A stretch of 56,951 nucleotides of DNA, filler included, from Sluysia triapertura (GCA_046118255.1; 4 parts of 4 records of this genome joined end to end with filler, not necessarily neighbours in it), one strand, 5' to 3'; counted from the first letter of the whole stretch, positions 6,170-45,000 are shown. The notes: generated by a model not told the origin, from the letters alone. Numbers and translations are program-made.

Positions 6170-6835
6170 TGAATAATATTTCTAATTGTGGTAGCAAACT
6201 TACTAACCTTAATAAATTTTACAAAAATCCTACCTCAAGCATATTAAAATCTCATAAATCTTCAAAATATACACTACACATTTTTAAATCTATTTTAAAA
6301 CCAATCCATCATAACTAAAATCGTACCCTTTAACAACATACCACAACCTTGTAAAATTCATCACAATCGTTTTTATATCTTATTTCTTTCAAATCCACAA
6401 AAATAAACTTTCACTTTTCAAAACACCTCAAGTCTACAATCTCATATCAAAAGTACATTAAACAATTCACCAAAAATATTTACTCGATATCTCACAACAT
6501 CCAAACTACAATAACATCTCAAACCATTGAATCACATTAGAAATTCATCTAAAATATTTCAATTTTCATCAATAACAATTCGATTTAAACTATATTCTCA
6601 ACAGTCTATAATCACCTTCTGAACATACAAAAGTTAGACTATAACATACTTACTTTTACACGTCAAACTACGCCTTCATGACATATTAATAGCTCATCAC
6701 CTAATAACATCTTAAACTGGAAACATTATCCCATTTAAAACATTAAAGTGTATGATAACTTCCACATAAACATTCGTAGCGCTTCAAAATATTTAACACC
6801 TAAAAGTATTTTTACCTGACATAATAATAACACTT
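6170..6835 (+). repeat. G-depleted C/A-rich cassette leader (dispersed repeat)
   Basis: Aligns by eye with the reverse complement of 34780-35430, e.g. CTCACAACATCCAAACTACAATAACATCTCAAACCATT vs CTCATAACATCCAAACCACAATTACATTCAAAACCATT. Confidence 0.8.
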
Positions 6836-6838
6836 CGC

Positions 6839-6916
<78 letters not shown>
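6839..6916. repeat. (ATT)n microsatellite
   Basis: Direct reading of the sequence. Confidence 0.98.
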
Positions 6917-6967
6917 CATTTCAACATAATTTATTTCAATTTAAATTTTAATCATGTTGAGTTACTG

Positions 6968-7152
6968 CCATCATCAACAGTGACATTTGCTTTATAATTA
7001 CAATTTCATGTCAATGTTGATGATGGTTGTCATCACAGTATAATTTAACTCATCAAAAGCAATAAAATAAGCTAACCGATCGTATTGGCTGAAAATCCAA
7101 ATCAGTTATTATACTGATTTTCTTAAAATGCTTTTGGTTGGACAACAAATCA
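6968..7152 (+). promoter_or_regulatory. Cassette hairpin plus degenerate CCAAT-type inverted block
   Basis: 19-bp stem CCATCATCAACAGTGACAT/ATGTCAATGTTGATGATGG with one mismatch (6968-7026), then TATTGGC...TGGTTGGACAACAAATCA, homologous to 34482-34651 reversed. Lies about 120 nt upstream of ATG 7275. Confidence 0.55.
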
Positions 7153-7274: not shown

Positions 7275-7890
7275 ATGTCATACAATTTTAACTACTATAA
7301 AGTTGATGATCTTAAAGATGTTGTTGATGATCTTAAAGATGTTGTTGATGATCTTGAATATCATAAAGATAAAGATTATGACAATTATATTAAGAGTCTT
7401 AAAGATAAAAATGATGACTGTTATTTCAAACATCATTAAAATGATAACGAGTATTTTATTAGTTTTAAAGATGATAAGGATGGTGTCAAGAATCATAAAG
7501 ATAAAGATTATGATAATTATGTTATGAATTTTAAAGAAAAAAATGATGACGGTAACAACTATTTCAACCAATATGAACATGATAATGATTATGCCGAGCA
7601 TTATAAAGATAACGAGAATAAAGGTGACTTAAGATTTGTTAAACAATATAAAGATGATGATCACAATTCCAAACAATATGCTGACGAGGATGATTATAAA
7701 GTTCAACGTAACCATATTAATCACTATGAAATGAATTTTCCTATGGACTAAAGTCATCGCCTTTTGTCCATACTCTACAGATGATCAAGGAATTTGTTTG
7801 ATGAACAGAGTAAAGTGTCAACGAATCGGAAATCAATGAACTTATCAAGAGTGTTAATGTGTGGATAGTTACATATACTAGAAAAGAGTT
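7275..7890 (+). pseudogene. Acidic D/N/K-repeat protein with Unkempt-type CCCH finger remnant (disrupted)
   Basis: ATG 7275 MSYNFNYYKVDDLKDVVDDLK..., in-frame stop near 7437, continues into ORF 7524-7751, then frameshifts into VIAFCPYSTDDQGICLMNRVKC (C-x9-C-x6-C). Homologous to 33342-34330. ORF 8026-8229 (…IIFNKTSTSPK) resembles IIFNNIRIKPPK near 42405. Confidence 0.65.
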
Positions 7891-10142
7891 GATAACAAAA
7901 ATTGATAAAGTAATAATTATTTTTATTACTATAATAATATTTATAATTATGATTTTTCTTCAGGTAACGAAACACGGATTCAATTAAAAGATATATGCAG
8001 AATAAAATATCTAAATATTAACATTATGAACTTAGAAAATTTTAATAAATTTTTTGATGTTTATATTTGTTTGTTAGTTAATTATAAACCAAAAGTCTCA
8101 TTAACTCTGTTAACTTTAATAGTATTTGAAATATATTTTAAAAGAATTCAATATTCAAATAAAGACCTAAAAGATTTTTATTTAAATTTAATAATAATTT
8201 TTAACAAAACATCAACATCACCAAAGTAATCGTTAGTTTTTTTGTATAAGTTATACTTTTTACGTACATTTGTAAATTCATACTCAAAATTTTTATCATA
8301 GAACCATTTAAAAGGGTCTAGAAAAATTAAACAAATTTATAGTATAACATTTTAACAATTTTCTATCATAATAATAAATTTGTAATATATGTTTTTAATT
8401 CAGTTTCAGGTATAATATTATCAAGAATAAAAAATTAACAATTGAACTTATGAGAATATAATTGTTCGTTAATATCATTAGATTGAAAAGCCAATCAATA
8501 AATAAAAGTACATTCATGTGGTTAAATGTTATTAATTTAATTTAATTGTCGATTTAATTCTCATTTTTCTGTATTTAACATTATATGGTTCAACAAAACA
8601 CTGCTTATATCTATGCTATGTTTGATGGATAAAATATGTCAATTTTTCATTTGTATTCATTGTAATAAAGAGTGAATTTATTGTTAGATTACGTCAATTA
8701 CTAGTCACAGTTAAACGAAAGTTATAATTATTTTAATTAAAATTATATAAACACTTGCATAATTATATAATAGATAATTTAATTTTATATTTAAGAATCA
8801 ATTAAAGATTTGATTATTTGTTTGTTATTCTTGAATATTTAAATTATGTATTATGTATATATGATTAAATGTTTAAATGACGAGTAAAGCATTATAAATC
8901 AAAAGATAAAAAATGACGTATAGTTTATTTTATAATTAAATAAACATGAGATGAGATAGAAGCTATAGAAAAAAATAAATAATGAATGAAATAATTAATT
9001 AATTAAATTATTTACAATAGCAACAATTACATTCAGATAAACTCTGTTCATATTAAATTAATTTCGACCTTATAATTTAATATGTTCAAGTTTAATAATC
9101 TAATAAGTGTTTTAATAGATTACTACATCATCCGTTTCATTTTTGACCTTTAAAATAAATTAGTTGTCCTATAAAAAGGAAAACAGATGAAGTTTATGAA
9201 TCAAATTAACATTTGTCCTAATATCTCTTGAAATCTCATTTTTTTAGTTTAAATCTTACGCATAATTTTCCTTCAAGGTCGTTCAGTATTTTGAGCAGCT
9301 TAAACAAATACGTACATAAAATCAATTTTCGCCCAAAACGATTAATAATTATTAAATTATTATTTAATAATTTATCAACTAAATTATGAAAATCATCAAA
9401 CTAAATTTTAATTCAAATTTAGTTTTATTATCTCTAAACTTTTAGAGATAATCAAATTATATTTAATCCTTTATTTAATTTTCAATATATACTATCAACC
9501 TTTTTATGTTGCTTCGGTCAAATTATAACATAACTATGGCGTGACATAATCTCCACAAGAAGCAACATTAACTAATCATATGATCGAATTTAGTGATAAT
9601 TGACCAACAATATATTCAAAACATCACTACTTAATAAGTGCTCAACGGAAAGATCGATAGAATATCTACTTATTTTTTACTCTGGTAAGTATTTGGTAAC
9701 GACATTCTGTCAAAAACAAAATGTAAATAAATAATCAATTTGAACGTTTAAATGCGCAACTGAACCTTGAAAATAATTTTCCATTGATATCTAAAAAGAA
9801 ATATACGAATACTCAATAGGTTGCAAAAAGCCATCTATATCACTGTTATATAGGAAATTCAATTATAATAAATGATGCTAACTCCTTTTTTACAATGTTA
9901 ATAATCGTATTTATATATTTCAATTAAAGTTTTTTAAAGAAAAAAATTAGGGCTATTTGACACTGTTAACACTGTCAAAACTCATTACCGCTAAAATTAT
10001 TTATTGGACTGTTTTCATTGGAAGATAAACAATTGTGAAATTGTCACATCATTATCGATTCATTTTTACAGATATAGAGTTCATATCTATAATTATTTCA
10101 AGGCACCATATCACCATAGTTCAAGTAACGTAATACCACAAA

Positions 10143-11381
10143 TATTGGTGCATAATTTCGTGCATTTTTTTACAATTATGAAAAATAAAATCAAGAAAAA
10201 AATTCCAAATAACAAAATGAATTTATTAAGTCAATAGAAAAAATAAATATCTCAGTCTCAGTCACAAATATTCTTCGCCACAATCGATCACTTCCTTCTA
10301 CCGTTCCAGCAGTTTGTCAATCCCACGTTTGAAGAAGCTTAGTGATTTTTGGTGGAAAATTATTCAATCCCCACGTTGTTATTGCTTCTTTGTTTTCAAA
10401 TGTGAGACCAGAAAGATGGTTCGACATGGAGTGGAAAAGATGAAAATCTGTTGGAGAAGGGGAAGAACGTACCAGCCAAGCTCTTCAGTAGCCAAGTTTG
10501 TCATTATGGCGACATTGTCATGCTGTAAAATTATCTGCTTCTTATTGGTCCTCTTCGTTTTGATTGCAGTGTTTACCCGCTTGAATTGTTTGCAATAAAG
10601 TTCGGCTTTAATTGTTTGGTATCTTGGAAAAATTCCGTAATTAATAACACTAAATTGGTTCCACTAAACGCATAACATGATTTTGCGTTGGTGAACTTTG
10701 GGTTTTCCACGTGGTTGTGGTTGCTTTTGAGGACATACCCAAGCTTTTTTGTGTATCAAATTTACATAGAGGCACAATTTCTGATCACCTCCTATGATCC
10801 TGGAAAAGAAAGATTGATGCTGCTGCACAGCAGATTAATGGCAAACGAGTAAAGATGCAGAAATACAAGCACGTTGATTTTTGTGACTTTCTTTGAGAAG
10901 GTGAGGTACCCAAGATCCAAGCTTTTGAACTTTTCCCATATTCTTGAGATGTCGAGAAATAGTGGTGCGATCACAATCACATGTGTCGATTGACGTGGAT
11001 CATCATGAATCAATAGGTTCAAACAGTCTTCATCAAAGTCACTAGGTCGGCCGGACCGAGGTGCATCGTTTGAGTCAAAATTTCCACTATTAAATTTCGA
11101 AAACCACTTTTGTGTTGTTTGTTTACTGAATGCCTTTTCTCCACAAACGCAACAAGTCATTTAGAAGCTGATTAAAATAGAAAAGGAGTAGATGCCGGAC
11201 ATGTTCATTTTTATCTACCTCACACTCCATTTTAAAGAGGTTAATGAAAGCGAAAGTTAGTCTAAAATGATTTAAATAGATAATTCAGCTGAACTAATAT
11301 AACTCAATCAGTTAAAACAAGAAGTTGGTGTATTTTCTTTGCAACAAATAAAACCGCACGAATTTATGCACTAACCTAATA
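10143..11381 (-). mobile_element. mariner (DD34D) transposon, near full length, inactivated
   Basis: TIRs TATTAGGTTAGTGCATAAATTCGTGCGG / TATTGGTGCATAATTTCGTGC. Transposase motifs EHVRHLLLF, KWFSKFNSGNF..D.PRSGRP, WVPH, HQRKIMLCV*WN, LQHDN, LGWYVLP, with frameshifts. Confidence 0.95.
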
Positions 11382-11485: not shown

Positions 11486-12485
11486 GTGGAAAATAATAAA
11501 ATAAGAATAAAAAATAATATAATGATATCATAAAGAAAATTCCAGAAGATAAATCTCCCTCTTCATTGGTCATTAGCTAATATCTATACTAGTTTTCAGA
11601 AAGAAATTATCATTTGATTTTTGTATTTAAAAATATGAAAATCTTTTGGAAAAGATGTAATTCTGTCAAATGTTAATTAGTATTAGTAAGTTTATACTTT
11701 TAAGTTTTTGAGGTTTCATACAGAATCTGTAAATTATTAATCTTTAGTTCGGTTTTCGAGTTAGAATTTTAACTATTTACATCAAAATTTAATTAAAATC
11801 TGTGGTTAAAAGTTGTCATTGATTTTGTTAATTGATTGTTAAAAAATATTAATTAATTTTGGTGTTTTAACTTTGATATAGTTAACGAATAAGAAGTAAT
11901 AAGAGAAGAAATTAAGTCGACCTTCAAATTACATATACTGTATAATTTTATAAGTTGTCATCGCTACAGACGTATTAAGCCGTTGATTAAAGCCGAACTC
12001 ATTAATCAATTTATTTTGTTAATCTTCAACCAAATTGAAGATTAAAGAATACATAAAAATAAAAATTAGCAAGTGTAAATAAGACTTATATTTTATAGTA
12101 ATAATTCAAGAAAAACTTTCTAAAATTTCTGATTCTTCTTCAAATTTATACTAACTCATATTTAGCAGCTAAAAATTCTTAATCGACTGTTTGATGGTAA
12201 CACAAACAAAGTTATTCTGTCAAAAAACGTACTACTACGTCAGCAGCTACTGAATTTCGAATAAGAAATGATATATTACTACGTCAACAGCCAGTAATGA
12301 GTTAAAAAAATCTAAATGAAAATCGAAAAAATATTTTAAATTATTTACTTAAAATATTTAATAAAATATGACTCATTATTACTAATTCTATTTTCAACCG
12401 CACATATCTAAATACAATTTTAAATTTAAATTTTATCACTATAAATATGTGAATTTGAAACGTATTTTATTTTTAATTTTAAATA

Positions 12486-14633
12486 CAGGGTGGTTGCTAG
12501 AAAAGCGGTAAATATGTCAAAGAGCTATTTATTTTTTTACAAAGAATAACCTTTATAATTTATAGTTTTAATCTTTGTTCTTTTTAAAAATTAAACACCT
12601 TCAAACACTATTATATTTTCGAAATTAAATTAAAAATGTGTTGAAATGTTTCCTTGTATCGACAGGTTTCTTTATGAACTCTTGCTAATACTATTTTAAA
12701 TCCATTGTCAATATACTCACTTCTTTATAATTTTAGTTAATATTTAAACTCTTTAATGAAGCGTTACTATTTTTCAATGCTTTCGAATTACTTTATAATA
12801 AATTCTTAATTTTGATTAATATGCACTTTTAGTCTTCGACAATAGTCTAAATATCTTCACTTATATAAATTATTATTCGTCAATAACAACTTAAATTATT
12901 TTACCTTATATCGTATAAACTTTTACAAGTTATATTTATGCTTTAGATTTATTTATCTAGGAGAATGAGATCGGATACTCGTTTCGGTGACCTGAAATGG
13001 AAATGAAAAGTAAGTTTTGAATCTGATATCAAATAAAATCAAATCTTGTTCTATTAAAAGTCTGACCTTAATAGAATTTATTTTACAAGAATAATTAAAT
13101 TCAATTTTAATAACAAATATTATTTTCAATTATTACGTAATGTTATTTTAATCTCCTCCTTTGGGGCAAAACTCTTTGTAAAAATTCAAATACAAAAAAA
13201 GTTAAATTAAAGTTTCAAATAAATTTTTAAAAATGAATGAATATTATGTTACATACTCATATTGCTCAAAATGTGGTCCGTTAACTTTAGATCAGCGTCT
13301 TAACCTAGAAGTCCAAGCTTGTGCAGCGTTGTGGAGGATATCTTTGAGGTATCTTTCGAAGCTCTTCTCAAGCTCGTTTTCAAATCATCACTTCTGAATC
13401 TCTGTTTATAACAAGCTCCACGCGCAGTAATCCATGACATTTAAGTCTGGATTTGGAGGGTCAATCTTCCGATTGAATGAAATCAGAAATAGTTTGCTGA
13501 AGAAATTGAACTGAAGCCTTTGTTGTGTGAACCCTGGCGCTATCCATATTTGGTCGTTCATTACATTTCGTATAACGCTGAACATCTGTGGACACATCTC
13601 TTCACAATAAACTTATTGGTTTATTGTTTTTTCTTCTTATCTTCAGGACTCTGATAATATCCATCAAGAAATCGAAGATCCTTTTTACTGTACCGTGAAA
13701 CTGCAGCATAACAAAGAACAGATGGCTGAAAATTGTCATATTCCACAAGCAGATCTTCCTCATATATGTCAGTTTTTACTCGCAATGACAACCTTGCTTC
13801 GTCCGAAAACGATACTTTTTCTAAGCACACTTGATTTAAAGCAACTGATCACTGAAAGCGACTTGTTTTTGCGCATTTTCCTATGTCGCTTGCTGAGGAT
13901 GTTACGTTTTATTCGACGGTAGCATTTCAGTTCACTTTTTTCGAGAATTTCAAACACTGATGTTTTCGATATATTGTGATGTCGAGCGATTTCTTGTTGA
14001 CTGAAATGACGTATGTTTATTGCACCATGTCGCGCATATGAAACAGTCAAATCTTTCACTGTGGCACGTACCTCGTCCGAAATTCGTTTCTTTGAACCCG
14101 TTTCTTTTTGGCGTGTACCAGATGTTTCAGAACCTTCTCGATTCAAAGTTGCAACATCATATTAAATTGAAATCGTTATAATCGTTGAAAAAAATTGGTA
14201 ACATTTTGTCAGTTTCCAAGTCGGATTTTCACTTTTGCAAAAAATAATCACTTGCTTTTGAAAGTCTGAAAGCTTTTTCCTTTTTCTTTTCACGATGTTT
14301 GTATCAAATGGAACCTAAAACAAATCAAAATAGCACGCATTTTATTCAAGATCTCCTCTGACCCTCAAATTTTCATGGATTACTTCGTTTAGAGCTTGTT
14401 AATCACCGAGATTCAGAATTGGCTATATGACATAAATTCTACTGATGATTTGAAAACGAGCTTGGGAACAACTTCGCAAGATACCTCAAAGATACGCTTC
14501 AAAACGCCATACTAGCTTGGATTTCTAGGTTAAGACGCTGCTCTAAAGTGCACGGACGACATTTTGAGCATCTATGACTGTAATATAACATTTGCTGTTT
14601 GACAAATTTTTCGCTTTTCTAGCTACCAAAATG
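12486..14633 (-). mobile_element. maT/DD37D Tc1-mariner element with rearranged ends
   Basis: TA-flanked TIRs CAGGGTGGTTGCTAGAAAAGCG / CGCTTTTCTAGCTACCAAAATG. Disrupted minus-strand transposase (~13255-14300) with an HTH (SQQEIARHHNISKTSV), FSDEA, DSARVH and PDLNVMDY; about 37 residues between the 2nd and 3rd Asp after restoring a frameshift. About 0.7 kb insertion at ~12530-13245. Confidence 0.85.
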
Positions 14634-25146: not shown

Positions 25147-25169
25147 TATTATTATTGTTGCTGTAATTA

Positions 25170-29089: not shown

Positions 29090-30075
29090 AACTATATAAG
29101 TATAGGACAAACACAATTTATATTATAACAAATTAATAATAATATTTAATAAATACAACACGAATAAACTATTACTTATTTATAGTTTCCAATTTTAGTA
29201 CACTTTTAATTACTATATTGTATTCAGTTAAATAAATTTCGTTTCAAAAGTATAGGGCACATAACGCAAACGTTTTATTTAAGAGACTATACAACGTATT
29301 GTACAAAATTAGTATTTTATTGATGTTCCCGAGTTTTCCATTACCTTTACACACCCTTTTGCATCGAATTAATATATTTAACTTTTTATTTCAATCTTTG
29401 CCCAAGCGTCCAATATTGTATTTTTTAAATCATATATATTGTTATACTGTTTTCATTGACTGTACATCTTAAATGATAATTGAGACCATAAGTTTTCTGT
29501 TGTATTGAAGTCAGAGGATCTTGCTGACAACTCTAAACTTTTAATCCGTCTTCACTGAACTTATTAAGTTTAGTTTTAGATCGATGACATTGATATTTTC
29601 TGTAAGTTTGACATACGGAATTACTACTTATCACCATAGTAGTAGTAGTACATATAGTAGTTATCATAGTACTTATCACCATTAAGAGTAAAGCCAGCTT
29701 TTTATTATAAATTATGGTAGCCCATACCATAATTGATTCTCTTAGAACAAATTCTCTTAGAAAATATTTCTTTTGAATCCTTTAGATGTCGCCAATAAAC
29801 ATCATGACCTATTTCTTCTCATCTGAGAATCTTACTTTGTCCAGTCATTGTATCAAAGTTAATTATTTCTATTTTTTGAGCATCAGTAAGTGGAAGTTTA
29901 GCAAGCATTTTAATGAATTCGATCTCACCACTATTTTTTAATATTCTTCATACTGTTGTTTTACTGCAGTTTAGTTCTAAATCCGACATTATGCGAGTTG
30001 TAGACAATGTTGTATTTTTCGCCCTCTTTTTCTACCGATTAGAAAGCGTCTTAGGACAGCCAATTTGTTTAACTA
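29090..30075 (-). mobile_element. Second degenerate Tc3-like copy
   Basis: Reverse complement aligns with 2770-3660 (e.g. ACTCGCATAATGTCGGATTTAGA, GTTTCAAAAGTATAGG) and retains extra 5' coding sequence (GCPKTLS, GRP-like). Confidence 0.88.
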
Positions 30076-30094
30076 AATGAAATATAGAACAGTT

Positions 30095-30640
30095 TATCTG
30101 TCAAAGTTAAATCTTATTCACAATCTTATAACATACACTTCACATTTACATCCAATACCACCAATTTACATCAACAAATCCATCAAAGACACGTAACTTG
30201 ACATTCACAACAATCAAATAATAGCCACATTTGAAATTATCCACTTTACACCTTCGAATCAATCATAACACCTTAATTTCAGCATTTATCATTACATAAT
30301 CATCAACAACACAAAATACAATACCACTTAAAAACAACAATAAAACAAATAACCTTTCAAATATACCAAGAGTTGTATTATAAATTACCTTTTCACATTT
30401 ATTAAACCACACTCTTCTCAATAGGTCTTTTATTCACGATTTTCCAATACTCAAATATCGCTCTCAATCAAGAACTTAAATCATCATCTAAAAATCCATT
30501 CTTGCATTCTCCATTTCACTAGACGACATAAAACTACTATCATACCTTGAAACGTTAATCACATATATAAATTCATTTAAACTAATCTTTATTCAGATAT
30601 TTTAGCTTCAAACATATTTAAATTTATTGCAATATGTTCA
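30095..30640 (+). repeat. G-depleted C/A-rich cassette leader (left arm)
   Basis: Only 7 G in 30121-30360 by hand count; starts with TGTCAAAGTTAAATCTTA, similar to the boundary TGTCAACATATAACCTTA of the right arm (reverse complement near 35390-35407). Confidence 0.7.
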
Positions 30641-30935
30641 GAAATCATTAGGAGCTAAAGCAAGTCCATGTCAGTTTTTAAAGAATACAAGAAGTTTATG
30701 CAGTGTAATAACAACAATAACTACAAAATTGCTCAGCGTGTTATTACATTCAATATTATCAAATTTTATTTCATTTTTAATTTAAAATGTCTAGAAATCA
30801 AAGAAAGAGACAGAAAGATCATGTGGGTTTCAACAAGACTTTATGCATTTTTAAATATTTTGTACTAAAGTAATATTAATATTAATAATAATAACATTAT
30901 TGTGATTATTATTGATATAAAATATATATATCTAT

Positions 30936-31096
30936 CACTATCAGTAGCTAATTCCTGTCAATACATTTTAATTAACGTTACTACTGATAGTGGTTAGTTC
31001 ATTAATTTGCATCATAAATAGTTTACTATTATTGGCCATCCACCCAGAATAAAATTCATTATTTTTCAGACAAACAATTCTGGTTGGATGACCAAT
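30936..31096 (+). promoter_or_regulatory. Hairpin plus inverted-repeat CCAAT promoter-like block
   Basis: Perfect 12-bp stem CACTATCAGTAG/CTACTGATAGTG (30936-30992), then ATTGGCCATCCACCCAGAAT...ATTCTGGTTGGATGACCAAT (31031-31096), about 105 nt before ATG 31201. Confidence 0.65.
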
Positions 31097-31200
31097 CACC
31101 GGTCATCATCTGCAAAAATTAATTAAAAATAAAAATTACTATTTTATGAGACATAAACAAAAAACTGAACTTTAATATCTTCATTTTAATTCCTGTTGAT

Positions 31201-32751
31201 ATGTCCGATTTGCGACTTGCGAAACATTCAATATCTGTTAGTAAAATTGATTTCAAAAGTGGTAATGTGACAATTATAATTGGTATATCTAATTTATCCA
31301 GTCTACTGGAAATCAGCCAGTATTTTAGTGATACTTCATTTATCGAATCTTACAATGAAACATTCTGGTTTAATGGTTTAAATAGCGTATGCACCGTCGT
31401 AAAACCATTTACTGCTGCTAATATTTTATTAGAAGATCAATGTTTGGAAGACTATAAATCAATATCAATATCGAATTTCCATATGAGTAAAAGCCATAAT
31501 GATTTATCCATTAGAAATCATAATGGAATTCAGAAGTTAAGATTAAAGTTCAATGTAGAACAGATTAAGTTGATTATATTAACTATTTCAATTTCAAATG
31601 ATATATGGCGATTACACTTTCCTGAATGTATAGTTTATAATATGAAATCAAATTGTATACAAGAACAAATTGTTAATTTAGACTTTGACAATCAAATTGA
31701 ATGCGAAAACTTGGTTGAATTAATTTTAAGTACTATTAAAAATGTGTATTCTGGTAAAATTTATGTCATTATATCTTCAGTTATTACCAATAACAAATAT
31801 AAAGTATTATTTTTGTGCCTTATTATATTTGTAATGCTATAAAGTTTACAAATATATTAATCCTAATTTAATATCTATTTTGGGCGTATATTCGTTCATG
31901 TATTCTGATAATGAATCAGTTGATTCACTTGATAATTACGATTTTATTTTGATGTTGTCTTCTATTTCTAATCGAGACGCCATAGCAAAATTGAAAATAA
32001 ATTTTAGTATAATTATAGATAATGGATTTCATTCTGCGTTGATTCAAAATTCAGAATGTCACAATTATATGATTACAATAGAACCTATTTCTCTACGTGA
32101 ATATCGATCCAATACCACGAATTTACATTTGTACCCATTATGTTACATTAGGAAGTTAATGTATAATTTAGTTGAATTATCTAGTAAATGTATTTCAGTT
32201 AAAGATAATGAAGAAGGTTTTCTATTTGTTCAGTTAGCTTTACATCAAAGGGCTGAAGTTTTTAAACCGTCTTATAATCCTGAATCACTTTTTCATGCTC
32301 GAATTAATTTAGTTTGTCCAGAAATATTTCAGACTCGAAAACAAAAACTAAAGATTATCAGATTATTTCAAAGTAGTGATGATTTTTGGAGCTATGAACT
32401 TTCAGGTTTCGGTAATGAACTTTTAAAAATGAGTTGTTTTGATTGTGTAAAAGCTAATTCATTAACCAGAGCTTTAAATGCAGTATGTGTAACACCAGTA
32501 TATACGCCTACGGTCCTGCTTCAAAAACGTATGGAGTTATTCACAAGCTTGTGCAACATTTAAAAAGACTCTCTTCTATATATTCAGCAAACAACGGTCT
32601 TGAAATTTTATTAGAATTGTATTGTTGGTATGCTCAGAATTATCACAATAAACCAAGTGATATCAAGCGAGAATACAAGATTAATATTAAAACTTTGCGT
32701 TCATCTCTTAAATTACGAAAGACATATGAAAAGTATTTAATTGAGAAATAA
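31201..32751 (+). pseudogene. Unknown ~500-aa protein split into three frames (possible MATH-like N-part and Mab-21-like C-part)
   Basis: Consecutive ORFs 31201-31842, 31880-32563 and 32485-32751; paralog at 18629-19735. Domain suggestions are motif-level guesses. Confidence 0.65.
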
Positions 32752-33341: not shown

Positions 33342-34330
33342 TCATTGAATTCTTGTCAGTCGGATTGGTCGAATAATTCCAATACTCTTGAGTAATTCTG
33401 CAATTCTGTATATATGATTACTATAATTTGCTTCATCTTTATTAAACTTTAATTCGTAAATAGAATGTGCGTAGTGGCAGCATATTCCGTGAATTAGACA
33501 TATCTCATTGTTATCGATACAGAATAGACAAAGAGCAGTCACATTAACATTTTTATAATTTTTGAATTCGTAATGCTTATCTTTATCATCGTTAAGTTTG
33601 AAATCATTAATTTTATAATCAAGTAAATAAAGATTATTATTATCGTCATTAATTCGTAAACATTAATTTTGTAATCATTAAGTTCGTAAATATTGTTATT
33701 ATCGTCGATAAACTCATAAAGATTAATTTTATAATCACTAAGTTCGTGAATATTAATATTATCGTTGATAAACTCGTAAACATTAATTTTATAATCATTA
33801 AGTTCATAATAATTATCTTTGTGATTGTGAATTTGGTAAGCATGGTCTTTATCATTGTTAATTTCATGATCATGATCTTTACCCTTGTTAGCTTGAATAC
33901 CATCATCTCCGTCATTATTAACTTTGCCATCATCAGGTTTGCCATTATTAGCTTGATAAACTTCATTCCTCCATTGCCAATTTTGTTATCATCATCTTTG
34001 TCATTGCTATCTTGATAATCATTATCTTTATTATTTTTAATTTCATCATCATCATCATCATCATCATCTTCATCATTATTAGTTTGATAATCTTCATCTT
34101 TAACATTGTTAACTTCGTTATCATAATCTTCATCATTGTTACATTGAATACCATCGTCATTATCATTGTTAATTTCTGTATCATCATCTTCATCATTGTT
34201 AGCTTGATAATCTTTATCTTTAACATGATTAACTTCTTTATCGTCATCTTCATCGTTGTTAACTTTGAGATAATCGTGTTTACAATAGTTAGATTTAACA
34301 GAAAATATGCTTTATTTTTCTTGGATTTAC
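33342..34330 (-). pseudogene. Acidic 10-aa-repeat protein with Unkempt-type CCCH zinc finger (frameshifted)
   Basis: The minus strand reads NNDEDDDKEVNHVKDKDYQANNDEDDDTEI... (30-nt tandem units), then VTALCLFCIDNNEICLIHGICCHYAHSIYEL = C-x9-C-x6-C-x3-H. Frameshifts near 33965 and 33650; no clear start codon. Confidence 0.7.
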
Positions 34331-34481
34331 CACCTCAATTAGTTATAAAAGTACAAAAATCTTTTTTAAAATAAAATACATAATTTTTAATTACTGCAAA
34401 ATTGTGTTATTAAACAAAGTTCGTTTAAGAAACGATCCAAATTTTTAATTACGTCACATTTTTGTGATCAAGCCACTACTG

Positions 34482-34651
34482 ATTGGTCATCCAACCAGAA
34501 GCAGTGATACTTGCTCTGGTTGGATGGCCAATAGGATCACATAATTATTATCATTAATAATTACCGAAGATAAAATCAACTATGATGACAACCATCATCA
34601 ACAGTGACATTGAATTGCAAATGTAAACCAAAATGTCATTGCCGATGGTGG
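34482..34651 (-). promoter_or_regulatory. Inverted-repeat CCAAT block plus hairpin (right arm)
   Basis: ATTGGTCATCCAACCAGA...TCTGGTTGGATGGCCAAT (34482-34532), nearly identical to 31031-31096; hairpin 34592-34651 is homologous to 6968-7026. Confidence 0.7.
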
Positions 34652-34779
34652 CAGCTACTCAGTTGATTATCCACATCATTAATAATGAATAATAATGAAA
34701 ATAATAATAATAATACAATGTTATTATTATTCTTTTGAATCTTAATAATATTTAACATATTTAAATCTACTAAAAAATT

Positions 34780-35430
34780 TAATGTCTTTGATGATGTGTG
34801 AAGGTTAGATGTTATTTAGATGTTAATATATCGTAGGTTAAAAGTATGTTGAAAGAGAGTGATTTCGAGAATGAAAAGAAGATAAGTTATAGTGTAGGTT
34901 TTAGTATGTTTGCAAGAATGATTATAGAATGTTGAAAATGTGATTTATTTTCTTGATGTTTATGTAGTGATGTCTTTATGTGCTGTAGAGAATTAAATGA
35001 TGCAGATTATGAATTTAGAATATTTGGATTGCTTTGAAGATGTTTGTTGGTTAATATCGAATGTGATTGTGTTTGAATTGTTAAGAAATGAAAAATAAAA
35101 TATTTTGAATGAATGTTTTAATGTAATTTAATGGTTTTGAATGTAATTGTGGTTTGGATGTTATGAGATTGTGGGTTTAATTGATTTTAACGGATGAAGA
35201 TGTTTAGTGGATGTAAAAGAGATAAATATTGGAATATTAAAATGTTTATAAATATGGTTTCACATACAATGTGTTGCTTAATTTATTATTGTTTTATGTT
35301 GATTTTAGAATGTAAAAGTCAGGTTTTGAAGGTGTGTGTTATGTTGAGTATTTTGGGAAACGTGGGATGTGAATTTTAATAAAATTCATTAAGGTTATAT
35401 GTTGACAACCACAATATAGATAAATGATTC
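34780..35430 (-). repeat. C-depleted G/T-rich tract = cassette leader on the minus strand
   Basis: 2 C in 35041-35220 by hand count; reverse-complement homolog of 6170-6835. Confidence 0.8.
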
Positions 35431-36930: not shown

Positions 36931-36984
36931 ACTGAAGAATATATTATTATTATTAAATCATTCAGTGAAAGTTTAATTAATGAG

Positions 36985-37060: not shown

Positions 37061-37481
37061 ATATTAAGTTATTGGATTTTACAAATGAATTGTCATTCAA
37101 GTGGTTTTAATTTATGACGCTCATTGGATTAAAATTAGTCAATTTTATTTAAAATTTACCTTAAAAATACAATTGTTTTGAAGCTTAATGCATTTAATAT
37201 TATTAAATTTCTATTATACGCAGACAAAACATAACATCATTAACACTCTTTGTTGTGATAAACTATAATACAAATTTTGTCAATGAAGTAAACTTATATG
37301 ATACTTAATTCAAAATATGGACGTTTTGAGCGTACAATTCTAATATAATTTATCAATGTTCATAGCAGTAAAATAAATGGATAACGTTTTAAAATATACA
37401 AAAAAATTTAGAATTATTTGAGTTAATAAGTTATTCGAATATTATTATCACTATTATTATTCACACAGTATTTTGACTTAC

Positions 37482-38336
37482 ATTTATTGTTTTTAGGTTA
37501 GGACAAGTAATCGAATATCTTGCAATGGTCATTTGTTTTAATTCATTCCTTGAAACCATCATCCCATCTCCATTATTTAATAAATACTTTGGTATTTCAT
37601 TTTTGAGAACGTCTTCTAACATCCTTTCACCTTGATCATTAAAAATATCTATTAACTTTCCTTTACCACTACTATTTAGTAAGTTATAAAGTTCATTGCC
37701 TCGAATATTTTCATTTCTTCTTAACCATACAAAATCATCAGGTTCTTCATTTGAAATTTTATATGTTTCCAGTGAATCTGTGAATGAAATCATTGATGAC
37801 AATCTTTTTGTTTTATCAGCCACATAATTACTAAAATTATTAATGGTTACACTACCGAATCTGCGATACGTACTGTTTGAATCTTCATTTTCTAAACTGT
37901 TGGGATTAAGGTGCCTATTAGCCGATTTTGGTGATAAAGCCTCCATTAAATTACTACGATTAGAATTAAGAGAAACACGAGGTGAGACATTAAACACTGT
38001 TACAGAAGGAGAGAATATTCGGGAATTGATGATAATTGTTGAATTGTTCTGATTAAGTTCCGGTGATACTAATTTTTGAGAATTGTTACTATTATTACTA
38101 CAATTTATGTTTTCAATAAAACAACAACAAACGACTTTTAAAGAATAAAATCTATTCGTATTATTTCTAGAATTAGAATTTTGATTAATATTGGTGTTAT
38201 AGTAATTGTTTTGTTCAACAATATTAATAGATGGTGTTACAAATCCAACCGAATCAGAATACGAAGGTGGTGGACAAATTGGATCTTCCGATAAAGTAAT
38301 TGTTTCTAATTTAAAATCCTTTTCATTTTTCAACAT
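37482..38336 (-). CDS. First coding exon (285 aa) of an invertebrate TRPV channel, Inactive/OSM-9 type
   Basis: ELYNLLNSSGKGKLIDIFNDQGERMLEDVLKNEIPKYLLNNGDGMMVSRNE resembles the pre-ankyrin N-terminal segment of Inactive/OSM-9/Nanchung (LYKL....GG.L....N.GG.....I......YNDGKG..I.R.E); GTAAGT donor at 37481. Confidence 0.7.
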
Positions 38337-38363
38337 AATTACTAATAATATTCTAACTCAAAT

Positions 38364-38463: not shown

Positions 38464-39128
38464 ACGACCACTACATTAATGCGTTCAACCAGATTATAAG
38501 TAGATGTTTATCACAATTATCGTCCAGTGATTGGTACTACCGAATACTTAACTTAGTTAGAGTTAGTCACATTTTGATTCAATTAATTTGTTTATCTAAT
38601 TATTTTGTAGATAATCAAAGAATCTTTCGGATCTTGAAATGGTGGAAAGTCGAATATAACAGTTATAATGGTGTAATCACTTTTCTTTTTCAAGTTAATA
38701 TTCACATTTTTGTATTAAAAAGATCTTAATTTTAGTTTATTTTATTTGTGTTAAAACTAATTAATGCCATAAGAACTAACGATGCAGTAAAAAAGTAACC
38801 TTAAATATAGGTTCAAAACATATTGTTATTTTAGAAATTCTAGAAATTATTATGAAAATTACAAGAAAATTAAAAGCTTTATAACAATGAGATTAAATAA
38901 AGCTATAAAGATATTCTCTTATAGTATACTTAACTTTAGACTGAATAGTTTTCGGACAAATTCTGCATACACATTCGTAATCTTTAAGATACCGTTTAGT
39001 ATAATCCTCTTTAAAAAAATTAATAATCCAACTTATATCTTAAAGATAACTACCAAATTTACAAATTCAATTTCAAAACTTCTTCTAAAACATTATTCAT
39101 CTCAAACAAAACATATAACTTCCATAGT

Positions 39129-39185
39129 AATCACGACTGATATTGTTCTTTCCAATTTACTTTGAGTCGTGATTGGATAACCAAT
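39129..39185 (+). promoter_or_regulatory. Inverted repeat ending in GATTGGATAACCAAT (cassette promoter variant)
   Basis: 10-bp perfect stem AATCACGACT/AGTCGTGATT whose right arm runs into TTGGATAACCAAT (cf. TTGGATGACCAAT); preceded by a G-poor tract (~39000-39125) and followed by ATG near 39299. Confidence 0.55.
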
Positions 39186-39298: not shown

Positions 39299-40743
39299 AT
39301 GATAGATGCTAATTTTTCACAGACCTTCTCTATGTTTAATAAGTTACACCAAAGAAATTATTTTCATATCGTCATAATGATAACATTATTAACGTTATCA
39401 ATAGTGGATATTCTAATTCAACTGTTAGCGATTTGAGTATGATAATTAATTCCGAACCGACGTTACCAAATTCAACAATAAATGCTACTTTAGTAGATAT
39501 TGGAAAAAGTCAATTTATATTGCTTACACTTTCAATTATGTTAAATAATGAGCAACAACCTATCGATTTTAGTTTTCAGATTGACTACATTCAAGTAGGA
39601 CCATCTGTAAAGACAGATTTTTCGATGCAGGAACCGACAACAGTTCAGAATATATTTCGTCTTATAAGTATTATGTTACAAAATTCAAATTGTTTTCATG
39701 ATAAAGATGTGTACTTCGGCCATCCGTATTTATTAGTTACATCATATGAATTGATCCAATCTCTTAACTTAGCAAATTATTATGCTTATAATACCCATTA
39801 CTCATCTATCGTTTCTCTAACAACGTTGCAACGTGAAAAAGTCAAACAAGAAATAAGTCGTATTAACAAAGAACGATCATCATATAATGATCTTGTCTTC
39901 CTACAATCAATCGTATATAGTTATATGAATTTATCATTAGAGAGTATGTTAAGTTTAGAAATGGTTTATGTCACACTTTCAAGTTACGTATGTCAAAGTT
40001 GATAGTTATTTCCTTCTCAATGATCAACGATGTATCAATATAAGTAATGGCAATTTACTCAAGACGCAAAATATTCAACTTATAATTAGTAATTTAAAAG
40101 TTAATGTGGTAATGACCAGAAATGTTGAATCAAAACGATACTTTCCCTATAATGCTTTTATTTAAGATGTTTCAAGCATGAATTTAACAAGAGCCAAGTA
40201 TTTAATGTGTATAATGACTATGACAAAAGATACTGGAATCAATATGAAATCAATCAGTATCCTTATTTTAGTAAATTGCTACTGAGAAGCTTAATAAAGA
40301 ATGAACTGATCGACAGAGGATTTCTGGATTTTGTTAACAAAATCTGTGGCGAAATCGAATCAACTAATGTAAGCTTTAATTTCATATATGTGTTAATTTT
40401 TATTTTAGTTCATATGTTTCGTATCCGGATCAGTGAAGCCCAACAGTGTTCTCTGCAGCAAAAAGGGTCTGCAAAAGAAATAAAGGGAGAAAACAAAATC
40501 TTTAATACTAATATGAATAACGTTTATTCAAAATTCACGACATTAAATGTTTTATTAATAAAATTATGTATTATTAATTGTGAAACCTTTTCGTTCTTTG
40601 TAAATCAGAAATTAAATTTTTTACGTTTTATGGAAATTAATGACGATAAATCTTTTAATTTTGAAATTCAATTAGTCAAATCAATACCTAAAGACATGAA
40701 AGGCTATAAACTGTTGAAAAATCATAAAGCGAAAGAAACTTAG
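39299..40743 (+). pseudogene. Disrupted gene containing a beta-1,3-galactosyltransferase (GT31)-like segment
   Basis: INKERSSYNDLVFLQSIVYSYMNLSLES matches E...Y.DI......D.Y.NLT.K; YVKVDSYFL matches (Y/F)VMK.DDD.F; NQYPYFS matches YPPYCS. Multiple frameshifts; candidate 40-nt intron 40369-40408. Confidence 0.65.
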
Positions 40744-41613
40744 TATTCAAATATCAAAAGAAAAAAATTGACGAACTCCAAAATAATTTTATATATAATT
40801 CTTTTAAAGCGTAGTAGTAGAACGATCTTTAAGACGTTAAACTTTTTCTATGAGTTGATTCAAAACGAACGTATTGACACGTGTATTATTTTCTTATTTG
40901 AACAACAATATTCTAAACTTGTATTAAGGTATAAAACCGAAAACAACTATAAACATCCCAAAGACTTATACACCCCAAATTGGTGTAAGGAGTATTACTC
41001 CCCAAATTCATGTCGGGAGTATACCCCCATAATATGATTTTCAACTTGATTGAAAAATATTACTTCCTGTTTTTAGTAACATTAAATTTATAGTATTTTG
41101 GAATGTGACATTATCGTTACTTTAATGAATAATCATTGAGATTTTAAGCTGCACCAGATTTTTTTGTGACAAATATTAATAATTCTTGCACATTCTTAGT
41201 GTCTTTACATTTATTTCTGTGTGAAAATTCAGAATTTAGAACCTCTATGTTCAACTCTAACTTAATGGATAATAATACATATTCAAAAGTAACGCTAATC
41301 TCAATGTCGTATTTTAAATGTATCAATTTTACCCAACCACATTTCAATTTTTCGCCAGTGTGGTGACCAACCTTATCACTCAAAATTCCAATTCGTTACA
41401 TCACAGTAAAACCTGTCATTTAAAACTGTCAACAAATCAGGGCAATCGTGACCTCACAATAATTTCATTCTCAATTTAAATTGTACTTACACAATTAAAA
41501 TTTTAGTCTCAATTACTTTGGTCAAAAAATATTATTTTAACAAAACATTTTCCTCAATCAATCTAAAAAAGAGATTTAACAATCAATACTTAATTGATTA
41601 AAGGTTAACAATA

Positions 41614-42090
41614 ATGAATTATTATGATGAGAATATTTTCGAAAATACATTTTTTCAATCACCTATGTTAAACAAGAAAGAGAAGAACATCATTATGTAC
41701 CTCATGAAAATTCTTTTCGAAATATAATTTTGATTATTTAAGCCACGTACTTGTACGTATAAGTGCGGAAAAAACTTTAGACGATACTGTATCAAGTGAA
41801 TATAGTTATCAGCATTGTCCCAAAATTGCAGGAATTACAGAACTTCCCTATTATTTACATCATTACAAAACCGGACAATGTCTCCATGGTACTTCAGATA
41901 CTGGTGAGTGCCTTGTGTATGGTAAAGGCTGTATATATTCACATGGTTATACTGATTCTCAACATGCTTTCTATGATGACAAGATATTCAACGATCATTC
42001 GGAACGTATTACCAACTTAATATCTACATTAAAATTAAGATCGACTACAATAATAGTCAGGCATTTCAAAATGATCCATGTACTCGTATA
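41614..42090 (+). CDS. Unkempt-type CCCH zinc-finger protein fragment (spliceable; may be a pseudogene)
   Basis: ATG 41614, candidate 46-nt GT-AG intron 41697-41742, then open frame GITELPYYLHHYKTGQCLHGTSDTGECLVYGKGCIYSHG, closely like Unkempt GDTERRYHLRYYKTGICIHETDSKGNCTKNGLHCAFAHG. Missed by the ORF track. Confidence 0.75.
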
Positions 42091-45000
42091 ATTGAGAATG
42101 CTGTATTCAACATAAATGATCAAAGTTTTTTTTATTAAGGTAAATCATTATACTATACAACTTTTATTATATTATTATGATCATATTTTTATTTTTTAAG
42201 AATTCTATTAAGTTTACGGACCATAGCATTTTTGAAAATAAATGAAAATTTATTATTACGCAGATCTTGTGTCCATAAACGAATTTTTATAAAAATTTTG
42301 ATAACTTCATTTAATAAATGTCTTAAATGCTATTTTAATATTTTCTTAGATGTATACATAATTAAAAGAATTAACAAAGTGAAGAACATGTTTCAAAAAT
42401 ATTAAATTATTTTTAATAACATCAGAATAAAACCACCAAAGCCAGATCACCTAACGTTGATTATAACATATCAACTTTTTAATACACATATTAACAATAT
42501 CAATAAGTTCATTTTGGACCATATATCTTAAACCAAATTAGCTACACAAATGCTATATTGCACTTAGACACACATCATAAAATGACATATAACGAAGTCC
42601 ACGACGTTTCGCATGTAAGCGAAGGAAATGATTAGTTAGAAGATATTTCTTAAAGTTAAGTATTGCTTTTATTACTCATTGAATTCTTTACAAAGCAACT
42701 TGTTGTTCAATGTTACTGGATTATCGTTTATATAGACTAGATAAACTATGAGCATTCATACTCAATTTTGTCAACTTATTTTGTATTCTGGTTATTATTA
42801 AAATAGTAACATTTATTTGTTCAAAAATTCAAGTTAACAGATTTAGCAGAATTGCTAAGCATATTTAATTTTCTTAATAGTTGTTTGCCTGACGAATCTA
42901 TCAATGATATATCATCTGCATGGGCCAAATGTTATTAGTGATTTAATTTTGTCTTGGTGTAAAATTATCATTATTATTCATAATGTTGTAATAAAAATTT
43001 TAATGACTTGATTTATCGTTATAAATAGTCTTCCTCACAAACGAATTGATTGCGATTGTATATAATCTAATTTATTTTAAAAGCGTCTTTAAAACGAGTC
43101 AAGAATTTCACATTTCAAATTTATTGAATTTCTGTTGTCAAAAAGTGTCAATATAGTGACTCTCTTTATCGAATATATAAGTTGAGAGCAGTAGAAATTT
43201 TTGATAAACATAATAAATAAGCACAGGGTACGGTGCTAGATGCTGCAATACCCCATACCTTGTTTGCACTAAATTTGAAAGTGCCACATAATGGTAAGTT
43301 ACATTTTTTCTGTTATATCTCGTTTAAAATTGAAATATCACAAATTTATTTTATACTATTTTATTTTTTATAAGTTTGTTCATTCTGAAGTCATACATAT
43401 AAATAGAAAAATCAGTGGGGTAATTGAAAATGTTAATAGCACCAATATTTTAAATCTTATGAAAGATAATCGAAATACGTATTTGAGTCACTTAAATTTG
43501 AAGAAACTAATAAAAACTAATAATTTATACACTTTCGAGTGTCAATACACACATTTATTGATTTTTTATAATAAGCACCATTCTAAAAATGAAATGACTG
43601 TTTCTAATAGCGATATCAAATTACGACATTCGATGAACTTTTTTGCATTCACAAAATTTGAAATAATATCGTACTTCAGAATCTGATTAACTTATATATT
43701 AAAAGCTCTCACCTCTGTTTGCAGAAACTATCATCTAACCATACGATGACACTGACACTCGTTATGAACGTTCTCGCACTTTACCTTATAACAACCATAT
43801 TTTATCAACTCCTAATATACTTGCTACAGTATCCTAATATTCTAATATAGTAACAAAAGCAATATTTTTGTTTCGTCTTTTAATTTAAATTAATAACAAT
43901 AACTCAATAATAAAATTATTTAATTTGAAATCTCAATATAAGTGCAATAAACACAAGATCAAATACAAATTATTACAATGAGTTTTTCTTTAACAATAAT
44001 ACAAATCATTTTAATACTTAGTAAGTCCTTACTACTACCTAATTTATTTCAATCTAACCTTAAATTTAAAACCTCTAATAAAATAATAGGATTCTTTTTT
44101 ACTCTTATGTTTTCGTCTAATCCGTAACCTTATCCATTTGTTGATTAAGTGTAGTGCTTATTTTAAAATTACTGATGTGTAGCTTTATTTTATTTTAGAA
44201 TTATTAAGTTATTTTGAAGATTACATTTTGTTAATTTTGCAAGTTTTTCCTGAGAGTTCGCCTATAGCCTGCGATTTAAGTTGACAAATCAACAACGTAT
44301 TTATAGGTTTTGAATCTTTCCACGAGTTACTGGTTTTTTCAGTCGACTATTAATGTGTTTTGCAATGACTCTAGTTATTACTTTATTGTAACTTTTTTTT
44401 ATTCTACGAATAATAAATTATTTCTCACTTTCTTTAACAATTTTTCAAGCGTTATCTTCCGCTTTAAAAATTATGCTTATTAACTTCAGTCACTGTTTTT
44501 TCTCTTGTTTCAATACTTCCGATTTATGTTACTTTAATTACTCTCTTTGTCAAATTCAGAAATTACTAAACACCAGGAAAATGTATTCACAATAGTTGTA
44601 ATCTAACACAAGAAAAACACAAAAATCTATGCATACATAATAATAGCAATAAACCAATTTATTACAAGAGAATATTAAACTCTTATTGCCTTTACGTTAT
44701 TTTTAATTAGATTTTATCACTAGCTTAAGCTAGCGTGAAATAACTACAAATTTTAAATATTGTTTTGTTTAATATTTGTTTAATATTTAATATTTAATAA
44801 ATGGATTTACAAAATTAATAAACAATAAGTTGATGATCAAAGTTTTCTCGATCAGACGAATTCCAAAAGAATATTTTAATGGATGAACACAAAATCTACG
44901 AATAATTTTTTTATTTCTTCAAAACTGATAAACACTAAGTTTGTGATTAAAGTTTCTCGATTAAACGAATATGCATGAAATTTTCGATTCTTCGAGGCAG

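What the first reader, a model, noticed from the sequence alone, without database searches (positions are those of the whole stretch)
6170..42500. Multicopy gene-cassette system: one cis-architecture carrying different host-derived cargo
Seen: the order G-depleted leader, AAT tract, hairpin, inverted repeat ending in TTGGAT(G/A)ACCAAT, ORF about 100-200 nt downstream recurs at 6170+ (contig 1) and at 30095+ and 35430- (contig 3). A shorter version (G-poor tract plus inverted repeat) lies at ~39000+ (contig 4) and more weakly at ~41200+. The downstream ORFs are unrelated to one another: Unkempt CCCH plus acidic repeats, an unknown family and a GT31-like gene. Most are disrupted, and some keep candidate tiny introns, which favours DNA-level copying over retroposition. 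No transposase, RT or Rep/helicase is linked to them. Inference: a non-autonomous gene-capturing element or a portable promoter module feeding a birth-and-death gene pool.
Basis: partly seen in the sequence, partly recalled or inferred. Interest (0 to 1): 0.8.

Follow-up and report, generated by a model that had tools for sequence, protein, structure and literature searches.

The report
Duplicated G-poor promoter shared by genes
A one-kilobase stretch of non-coding DNA, almost free of G on one strand and ending in three hairpins, was copied in front of two unrelated genes of an AT-rich animal genome, most likely as a borrowed promoter and not as a jumping element.

Summary
Three copies (A 6171+, B 30093+, C 35430-) are real homologues. 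Each has a 490-640 nt tract with 3-4% G, an AAT/ATT hairpin, a hairpin with compensatory changes and a CCAAT inverted repeat (degenerate in A), 105-170 nt before the gene start. D (39003+) shares only the motif and composition; E (41366+) is not supported.

A and C carry the same cargo (acidic repeats plus Unkempt-type CCCH finger), so they are a plain duplication. The one solid case of different cargo is B. Its 'unknown' ORF is a catalytically dead, full-length DEAH/RHA helicase relative with 453 stop-free codons, so it was under selection for a long time. The GT31 label for D found no support.

No target-site duplication, terminal repeat or CTRR end was found. Best reading: an upstream control region copied by DNA-level rearrangement and swapped between two gene families. 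That is a known kind of event. The odd part is that G-poverty persisted after duplication (A/G 11 vs C/T 64 differences; controls 71 vs 65), which implies a strand-specific process. The rest of the genome and RNA data could not be searched, so a mobile cassette or a non-coding RNA is not excluded.

The parts
6171..6836 (+). Copy A G-poor leader (G 4.4%); homology to C starts at 6171
6821..6916 (+). Copy A AAT/ATT hairpin with the 3' arm expanded into a (TAT)n microsatellite
6964..7030 (+). Copy A hairpin 1 (12-bp core 6968-6979 with 7015-7026)
7083..7152 (+). Copy A hairpin 2, degenerate (CCAAT broken)
7275..7963 (+). Cargo A: ATG 7275, D/K/N-rich repeats with an internal stop, frameshifted Unkempt-finger remnant (about 7755-7850), candidate 54-nt intron 7910-7963
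   Evidence: (25 of 2000 shuffles vs C)
29146..30070 (-). 5'-truncated Tc1-type transposon abutting the shortened start of copy B
   Evidence: left end read from the sequence
30093..30595 (+). Copy B G-poor leader (G 4.1%); aligns to C from 35198, so it lacks C's first ~230 nt
30876..30921 (+). Copy B AAT/ATT hairpin
30934..30994 (+). Copy B hairpin 1, with 4 of 12 core pairs changed on both sides against A/C
31030..31098 (+). Copy B hairpin 2 with two opposed CCAAT boxes; 3' arm identical to C over 21 nt
31201..32751 (+). Cargo B: full-length, catalytically dead DEAH/RHA helicase-like gene, frameshifted near 31835 and probably near 32500
   Evidence: second frameshift read from the ORF list
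33345..34315 (-). Cargo C: acidic repeats plus Unkempt-type CCCH finger, frameshifted; converges on cargo B
34479..34535 (-). Copy C hairpin 2, the top-scoring stem among 19 listed for the window
34592..34651 (-). Copy C hairpin 1 (two G.U pairs, one mismatch)
34698..34736 (-). Copy C AAT/ATT hairpin
34787..35430 (-). Copy C G-poor leader (G 2.8%)
39003..39185 (+). Possible remote or short copy D: 132-nt G-poor tract, 10-bp inverted repeat 39129-39174, CCAAT 13-mer 39173-39185
   Evidence: not alignable
39299..40743 (+). Cargo D: broken ORFs of unknown family, hydrophobic N-terminal stretch, candidate 40-nt intron 40369-40408; GT31 not supported
41614..42091 (+). Unkempt-derived gene E, closest of the three to the Pfam model; no demonstrable module upstream

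Best explanation
The block is a ~1 kb upstream control region (promoter plus upstream tract). DNA-level rearrangement in a transposon-littered region copied it and swapped it between two gene families. SHOWN: homology of A, B and C; position at gene starts; two unrelated cargoes; long selection on the B frame; persistence of the G-poor strand and of the stems after duplication. INFERRED history: the block belonged to the old pseudo-helicase gene (B). An inverted duplication placed it in front of an Unkempt-derived gene (C), and A is a further copy of that unit. E is an Unkempt copy without the block. INFERRED function: the two opposed CCAAT boxes of hairpin 2 act as NF-Y-type sites firing in both directions, forward into the gene and backward across the tract. 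The backward strand is often single-stranded (non-template strand or R-loop), so C-to-T and A-to-G changes keep it G/T-rich, the other strand stays G-poor, and the inverted repeats are kept paired by template switching or selection.
For: Leader homology z about 20. Homology stops at the tract start: upstream flanks 22 of 300 shuffles, spacers before the ATG 20-56 of 300. There is no codon periodicity in the leaders. A/G 11 vs C/T 64 differences in the leaders against 71 vs 65 in three control repeat pairs, Fisher p=6e-8. A, C and T contents agree within about 1% across A, B and C despite 28-40% divergence, as expected of a stationary asymmetric process. B has 0 stops in 453 codons, where neutral drift at 0.2 substitutions per site gives 13.4 on average and 0 of 300 runs had none. 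A relative with likewise degenerate motifs exists elsewhere (P0001). RRCCAATSR (recalled NF-Y consensus) is met in B and C. Hairpin 2 folds better on the backward strand (C -42.3 vs -37.1, B -28.4 vs -21.8 kcal/mol). G+T excess on non-template strands by deamination is described in PMC10030826 (passages). Precedents: PMC3371713 (abstract) and 10.64898/2026.08.09.743762 (section 13 and part 1 of 3 of section 4).
Against: No transcription data, so promoter activity, start sites and antisense RNA are all untested. The skew is far stronger than I recall for ordinary transcription bias. Under a G-free-ancestor model the A/G deficit is significant only for B-C (6 of 44, p=0.014) and not for A-C (5 of 31, p=0.13). 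RRCCAATSR is common (9 matches, 4.0 expected), A has lost it, and no TATA box follows in 5 of 5 spacers. An 18-bp stem is much more than a CCAAT site needs. Hairpin 1 folds equally on both strands. The stop-free B frame could instead reflect recent capture from a parent locus. The direction of the swap rests on three copies. Three copies in 57 kb may mean many more genome-wide.
Confidence: 0.5

Rival explanations
1. A non-autonomous mobile cassette (rolling-circle or retroposed) with an outward-reading promoter inserted in front of genes or carried them along. Its single-stranded phase explains the skew. B and C could also be the two long inverted ends of an old MuDR/Pack-MULE-like unit with two convergent genes.
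For: A-C homology begins sharply at the tract start. The 5' length varies (B lacks ~230 nt; D would be ~130 nt). B and C form an inverted pair around two convergent genes, the layout described for MuDR in PMC3310237 (passages). The substitution spectrum is strand-asymmetric. A TC dinucleotide lies near the start of all three copies (by eye). 3 of 3 firm copies sit at gene starts.
Against: Longest flanking direct repeat 6-8 nt in 6 of 6 tests (null 95th percentile 7-9). Longest end-to-end inverted repeat 8-10 nt or none in 5 of 5 tests (null 9-11). No CTRR within 40 nt after hairpins in 6 of 6 junctions. B and C arms are only 62-67% identical and offset. There is no second leader behind any cargo and no Rep/Hel or MULE domain among 26 ORFs scanned. 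Ends this old may have decayed.
Confidence: 0.2
2. The block is a non-coding RNA gene or a structured 5' leader: an unstructured G-free RNA followed by two miRNA-precursor-like hairpins, which was duplicated together with or next to the genes.
For: Stems with z -2.9 to -5.5. One arm is identical over 21 nt while the loop varies (hairpin 1 A=C, hairpin 2 B=C). Hairpin 1 has 4 of 12 pairs changed on both sides plus G.U pairs (20 of 500 shuffles; none to one in slid registers). The G-poor strand is nearly unfoldable, -11.5 to -25.3 kcal/mol per 500 nt against -78.5 +/- 14.6 in 60 background windows. ACAT, TTCA and CATC words are enriched (copies are not independent).
Against: No Rfam family reaches its threshold; the best are two miRNA models at E 0.11 and 0.92, far below gathering scores. 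B's hairpins lack a lower stem and have 24-26 nt loops. Both arms of hairpin 1 differ in B, which would change the mature sequence. The two hairpins prefer different or no strands. Three sequences cannot separate selection from template switching.
Confidence: 0.2
3. The tract descends from mitochondrial DNA (control region or rRNA) or from a degenerate telomere-like repeat, which would supply the strand skew, and was later exapted.
For: A/C-rich versus G/T-rich strands and C/T much greater than A/G match mitochondrial strand asymmetry (recalled; numbers).
Against: No Rfam rRNA or tRNA match. No codon periodicity. No 5-6 nt period, CC is depleted (0.65) and CCCTAA occurs 0 times. Independent insertions would not land at gene starts.
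Confidence: 0.07
4. Plain duplication of one gene family, with the B match an artefact of shared low-complexity composition.
For: True for A versus C. D and E are explained by composition alone.
Against: B-C leader z=21.2 against local-composition shuffles and a 21-nt identical arm. B cargo is DEAH-like and unrelated to Unkempt.
Confidence: 0.03

Closest known systems
Promoter acquisition by segmental duplication (LRRC37 from BPTF and DND1; PMC3371713, abstract and start of introduction read)
   Same: One upstream region is shared by unrelated genes after DNA-level duplication.
   Different: Those are recent, near-identical primate duplications with tested promoters. Here copies are 28-40% diverged, activity is untested, and the block has an extreme strand skew and covarying hairpins.
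Drosophila 'tinkering loci' (bioRxiv 10.64898/2026.08.09.743762; abstract, part 1 of 3 of section 4 and section 13 read)
   Same: Clustered, broken duplicates of unrelated genes among transposon relics, spread by ectopic recombination at DNA level.
   Different: In the parts read, the shared substrate is transposon sequence of any class; no single recurring promoter block is described there.
MuDR / Pack-MULE (PMC3310237, passages read)
   Same: B and C: long inverted arms with inward-facing putative promoters around two convergent genes.
   Different: Arms are ~1 kb, only 62-67% identical and offset; no 9-11 bp TSD; no transposase.
Non-autonomous Helitron-like elements HLE1 and HLE2 (PMC11417382, passages read)
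   Same: Hairpins, microsatellite, host-gene neighbours, no TSD.
   Different: No hairpin+CTRR end, no 11-18 nt terminal inverted repeats, and stems are longer with large loops.
HeT-A 3' UTR promoter (PMC1636488, passages read; the A/C-rich strand bias of HeT-A is recalled)
   Same: A non-coding tract whose 3' end would drive transcription of the downstream neighbour.
   Different: No retrotransposon ORF, no tandem array, no telomere context, no TSD.
DEAH/RHA helicases (DHX35, Prp2-type, HrpA), for cargo B
   Same: Colinear match from motif II to motif VI.
   Different: Walker A, DEAH, SAT and motif VI are replaced, so it is a pseudo-enzyme; the analogy to Drosophila Bgcn is recalled, not tested.

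Membership tests
Helitron HLE1 | 3' short hairpin followed by CTRR | tested here: not met
   0 CTRR in 6 of 6 40-nt junctions after the hairpins, both orientations; at the outer ends 0 in A and 2 in C, not conserved
Helitron HLE1 | 5' TC, insertion between A and T | tested here: inconclusive
   TC near the start of A, B and C by eye, preceded by A in 2 of 3; A-C similarity runs ~10 nt further out
Helitron HLE1/HLE2 | Autonomous RepHel partner with the same ends | not testable with these tools
   None among 26 ORFs scanned; the rest of the genome is not available
HLE2 / Helentron-associated elements | [quoted passage not shown] | tested here: not met
   Longest 8-10 nt, within the null, in 4 end pairs for A and C
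Pack-MULE / MuDR-like | Inverted long arms facing inward around captured genes | tested here: met
   B (+) and C (-) flank two convergent genes
Pack-MULE / MuDR-like | Terminal, highly similar TIRs of 100-500 bp | tested here: not met
   62-67% identity, ~230 nt offset, no shared 8-mer at the outer ends
Pack-MULE / MuDR-like | 9-11 bp TSD | tested here: not met
   Longest 8 and 6 nt, null 95th percentile 8; B's outer end may be deleted
LTR-flanked or LINE-mediated retrocopy | Second LTR behind the cargo, or TSD around the unit | tested here: not met
   Leader HMM gives only the 3 training copies at E below 1; no TSD in 4 of 4 tests
LTR-flanked or LINE-mediated retrocopy | Intron loss in the cargo | tested here: inconclusive
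   Candidate GT-AG introns in A, D and E; none found in B or C by the pattern used; parent genes unknown
miRNA precursor cluster | Stable hairpin with one conserved ~21-nt arm and variable loop | tested here: met
miRNA precursor cluster | Match to a described family | tested here: not met
   Rfam: 2 matches at E up to 1, both far below gathering score; hairpin-2 arm 14-mers in 0 papers
miRNA precursor cluster | Mature and star reads with 2-nt overhangs | not testable with these tools
   No small-RNA data
CCAAT-box (NF-Y type) promoter | RRCCAATSR site upstream of the gene start (consensus recalled) | tested here: inconclusive
   Met in B and C, not in A or D; 9 matches in the window vs 4.0 expected
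CCAAT-box (NF-Y type) promoter | Start site 60-100 nt downstream and NF-Y binding | not testable with these tools
   No CAGE or ChIP data
DEAH/RHA helicase (cargo B) | Homology over the two RecA domains | tested here: met
   Profile of P0001 plus B part 1: DHX35 top at E 0.0096, 6 of 8 PDB hits DEAH-type. HrpA/HrpB profile ranks P0001 first (E 2.4e-4) and B part 1 second (E 0.043) of 389 targets; 0 of 300 shuffles. B parts 2 and 3 alone were not significant and are tied in through P0001 (part 2) or by eye (part 3).
DEAH/RHA helicase (cargo B) | Catalytic motifs I, II (DEAH), III, VI | tested here: not met
   Motifs II, III and VI replaced in B or P0001 (alignments); motif I judged by eye
Unkempt CCCH (cargo A, C, E) | UNK-type CCCH finger PF25427 | tested here: inconclusive
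   E 30.3 bits and C 17.3 bits, both under the 31.1 cut-off; A only by alignment to C, 25 of 2000 shuffles
GT31 glycosyltransferase (cargo D) | GT-A fold homology with DxD motif | tested here: not met
   No Pfam, PDB, Atlas or homologue hit; model pLDDT 39.5, no fold match. A Fringe/Cosmc-like stretch is seen by eye only (recalled).

The most novel reading that the evidence does not exclude
An undescribed kind of mobile promoter cassette. It is a ~1 kb non-coding unit with no standard transposon ends, whose G-free strand and three hairpins are needed in a single-stranded DNA or RNA phase. It lands at, or carries off, the starts of host RNA-regulator genes (Unkempt fingers, dead DEAH helicase) genome-wide and puts them under one shared programme.
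Probability: 0.15. Interest if true: 0.85.

Novelty: new variant of a known kind. Interest (0 to 1): 0.48.

Why it matters
Promoter swapping by duplication is known. This case adds a distinctive, easily searchable marker: a 500-640 nt tract held at about 3-4% G plus covarying hairpins, not in Rfam. It links two fast-evolving RNA-regulator-like gene families, one an apparently conserved pseudo-helicase. One genome scan plus RNA-seq would show whether it is a local accident, a spreading regulon, a new non-coding RNA or a new element, and what keeps a nuclear tract so strand-biased.

Tried and rejected
Leader as decayed coding sequence: no codon-phase or lag-3 signal, six-frame translations full of stops.

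B and D as one family (an idea from motifs seen by eye): not significant.

Further copies in the window: HMMs and covariance models return only the three training copies and their reverse strands as clear hits; the next best are E 0.21 (R1) and 0.039 (R2, 5528-5610, poorly paired). Candidate leaders at 43600, 47650 and 49600-50400 are not alignable.

Telomere-repeat or tandem-repeat origin: rejected. tRNA/SINE head: 0 genes. Phage or plasmid relatives of the module and of P0001: none; PHROGs gave one weak row.

Word-index homologue searches for B part 2, E (longer proteins only) and D part 1 found nothing, so the host taxon was not established beyond animal-like. Single-sequence AlphaFold models of P0001 and D were unusable (pLDDT 35.0 and 39.5) and their fold searches gave nothing. 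The first three-row protein alignment misplaced B part 1 and was dropped. The permissive BLAST was mostly AT-rich noise and its output was cut; only its top A-C rows were used.

Paper searches on the contig spacer, Unkempt expansion and DEAH pseudo-helicase gave nothing relevant. No eukaryotic genome collection was available and the viral and metagenome contig collections were not searched, so copy number and outside relatives stay unchecked. No supplements were read.
Full report
Setting. The window is four contigs joined by N-spacers at 15545, 27077 and 38364, with 25% G+C. It holds mariner, Tc1 and gypsy relics, a BTB gene and Unkempt-type fingers, so it is animal-like; the taxon was not established. 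Whether the contigs are neighbours on a chromosome is unknown. I call the five sites A (6171+), B (30093+), C (35430-), D (39003+) and E (41366+).

Observation. A, B and C are the three strongest G-poor/C-rich segments of 15 (85.3, 68.6 and 58.6 bits; maximum 14.6 in 20 shuffled windows), with 2.8-4.4% G against 12.4%. Their leaders align far better than dinucleotide shuffles that keep local composition: A-C z 19.8, B-C z 21.2, A-B z 4.0. All three have the order leader, AAT/ATT hairpin, hairpin 1, hairpin 2. Hairpin 1 keeps 35 of 36 cells paired, with 4 of 12 pairs changed on both sides (20 of 500 shuffles; three sequences only). The 3' arm of hairpin 2 is identical over 21 nt in B and C and degenerate in A.

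D and E. D has the 13-mer with one mismatch (0.09 expected per window) right after the fourth-ranked segment, but it does not align to A, B or C. It may be a remote copy or a convergent layout. E is not supported by any test.

Cargo A, C and E. A and C align continuously from the leader through the acidic repeats (cargo 0 of 300 shuffles, finger region 4 of 300), so they are one duplicated gene. E carries the best-kept Unkempt finger (E 4e-7) but no module.

Cargo B. A search of 1.84 billion representatives gave 1 hit, P0001 (E 1.7e-4). It matches both frames of B in order (1e-9 and 7e-11 pairwise), so B is one gene with a frameshift. A profile of P0001 plus the first frame puts DHX35 first in the PDB (E 0.0096), with 6 of 8 hits DEAH-type. 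A profile from E. coli HrpA and HrpB plus 18 of 80 fetched HrpA loci ranks P0001 and B's first frame first and second of 389 targets, colinear from motif II to motif VI with the catalytic residues replaced. B's second and third frames were not significant on their own. B is therefore a pseudo-helicase gene starting 105 nt after hairpin 2. It has no stop in 453 codons, where neutral change at the module's divergence would give about 13 (0 of 300 simulations without a stop).

Cargo D stayed unidentified. The GT31 label got no support from Pfam, PDB, Atlas, homologue or fold searches.

Is it a mobile element? No TSD (6 of 6 tests), no short terminal inverted repeat (5 of 5) and no CTRR after the hairpins (6 of 6); the defining features are taken from passages of PMC11417382 and PMC3310237. 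No second leader follows any cargo. B and C do form an inverted pair around two convergent genes, as in MuDR, but the arms are 62-67% identical and offset by about 230 nt, and B's start abuts a truncated Tc1. Old ends can decay, so this lowers the idea without closing it.

What keeps the skew? In aligned leader columns A/G differences number 11 and C/T 64, against 71 and 65 in three control repeat pairs (p=6e-8). Against a strand-symmetric model p is 0.0015 (B-C) and 0.022 (A-C) with present composition, and 0.014 and 0.13 if the ancestor had no G. Base composition is nearly the same in the three copies. The tract shows no coding periodicity and no telomere-like period, and has no Rfam, tRNA, phage or plasmid match. 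The G-poor strand is almost unfoldable. A G+T-rich strand is the known mark of a strand left single-stranded, such as the non-template strand (PMC10030826, passages). Hairpin 2 holds two opposed CCAAT boxes and folds better on that strand. I infer a bidirectional promoter whose backward transcript crosses the tract. Selection for a G-free RNA is the alternative. Neither is shown.

Verdict. The block is most likely an upstream control region copied at DNA level and swapped once, or twice if D counts, between gene families (0.5). A mobile cassette (0.2), a non-coding RNA locus (0.2) and an organellar origin (0.07) remain open. Closest precedents are promoter gain by segmental duplication (PMC3371713, abstract) and tinkering loci (10.64898/2026.08.09.743762, abstract, sections). 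I found no description of this block itself: the hairpin-2 arm occurred in 0 papers, and keyword searches (listings only except where cited) returned only general precedents. The library lacks most subscription papers and supplements were not read. The finding is real but smaller than reported. The maintained strand bias and covarying stems are what is worth following.

Noticed in passing
35700-36950 + and 50560-51920 +: A second, separate non-coding repeat (77% mean column identity). It has a 46-nt identical hairpin block near 36806 and 51781 and 57-bp tandem near-palindromic units at 36313/36370 and 51195/51252; no Rfam match. Weak further hits to the hairpin block lie at 5445-5514 and 1946-2051 (E 0.13 and 0.27).
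   Followed up: partly
30150-30171 and 32107-32128: A 21-of-22 nt match on the same strand between the B leader and the B reading frame. An antisense RNA from the leader would be complementary to the B mRNA; it may be chance.
   Followed up: no
2737-3659 + and 29146-30070 -: Two decayed copies of one Tc1-type element, 73% identical.
   Followed up: partly
10140-11380 -, 12480-14640, 16880-17700 -: Mariner relic; Tc1-like element with ~200 bp inverted repeats; gypsy-type RT/RNase H relic.
   Followed up: no
20627-20800, 49081-49476, 8745-8878, 9392-9464: Long imperfect palindromes, MITE- or foldback-like.
   Followed up: no
43725-44086 +: A weak G-poor segment (13.5 bits, within the null) spanning an ATG at about 43979 that begins a hydrophobic signal-like stretch (by eye). 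G-poor tracts may be a general mark of gene starts here.
   Followed up: no
24900-26001 +, 54700-56750 -, 37464-38357 -, 21159-21989 +: Host-type genes: kinase-like C-terminal exons (by eye; no Pfam hit), a BTB-domain gene (E 1e-5) and two unidentified open frames.
   Followed up: no
P0001 (347 aa, single-member cluster): A degenerate DEAH helicase relative from another data set, 27-31% identical to cargo B, suggesting an unannotated pseudo-helicase family.
   Followed up: partly
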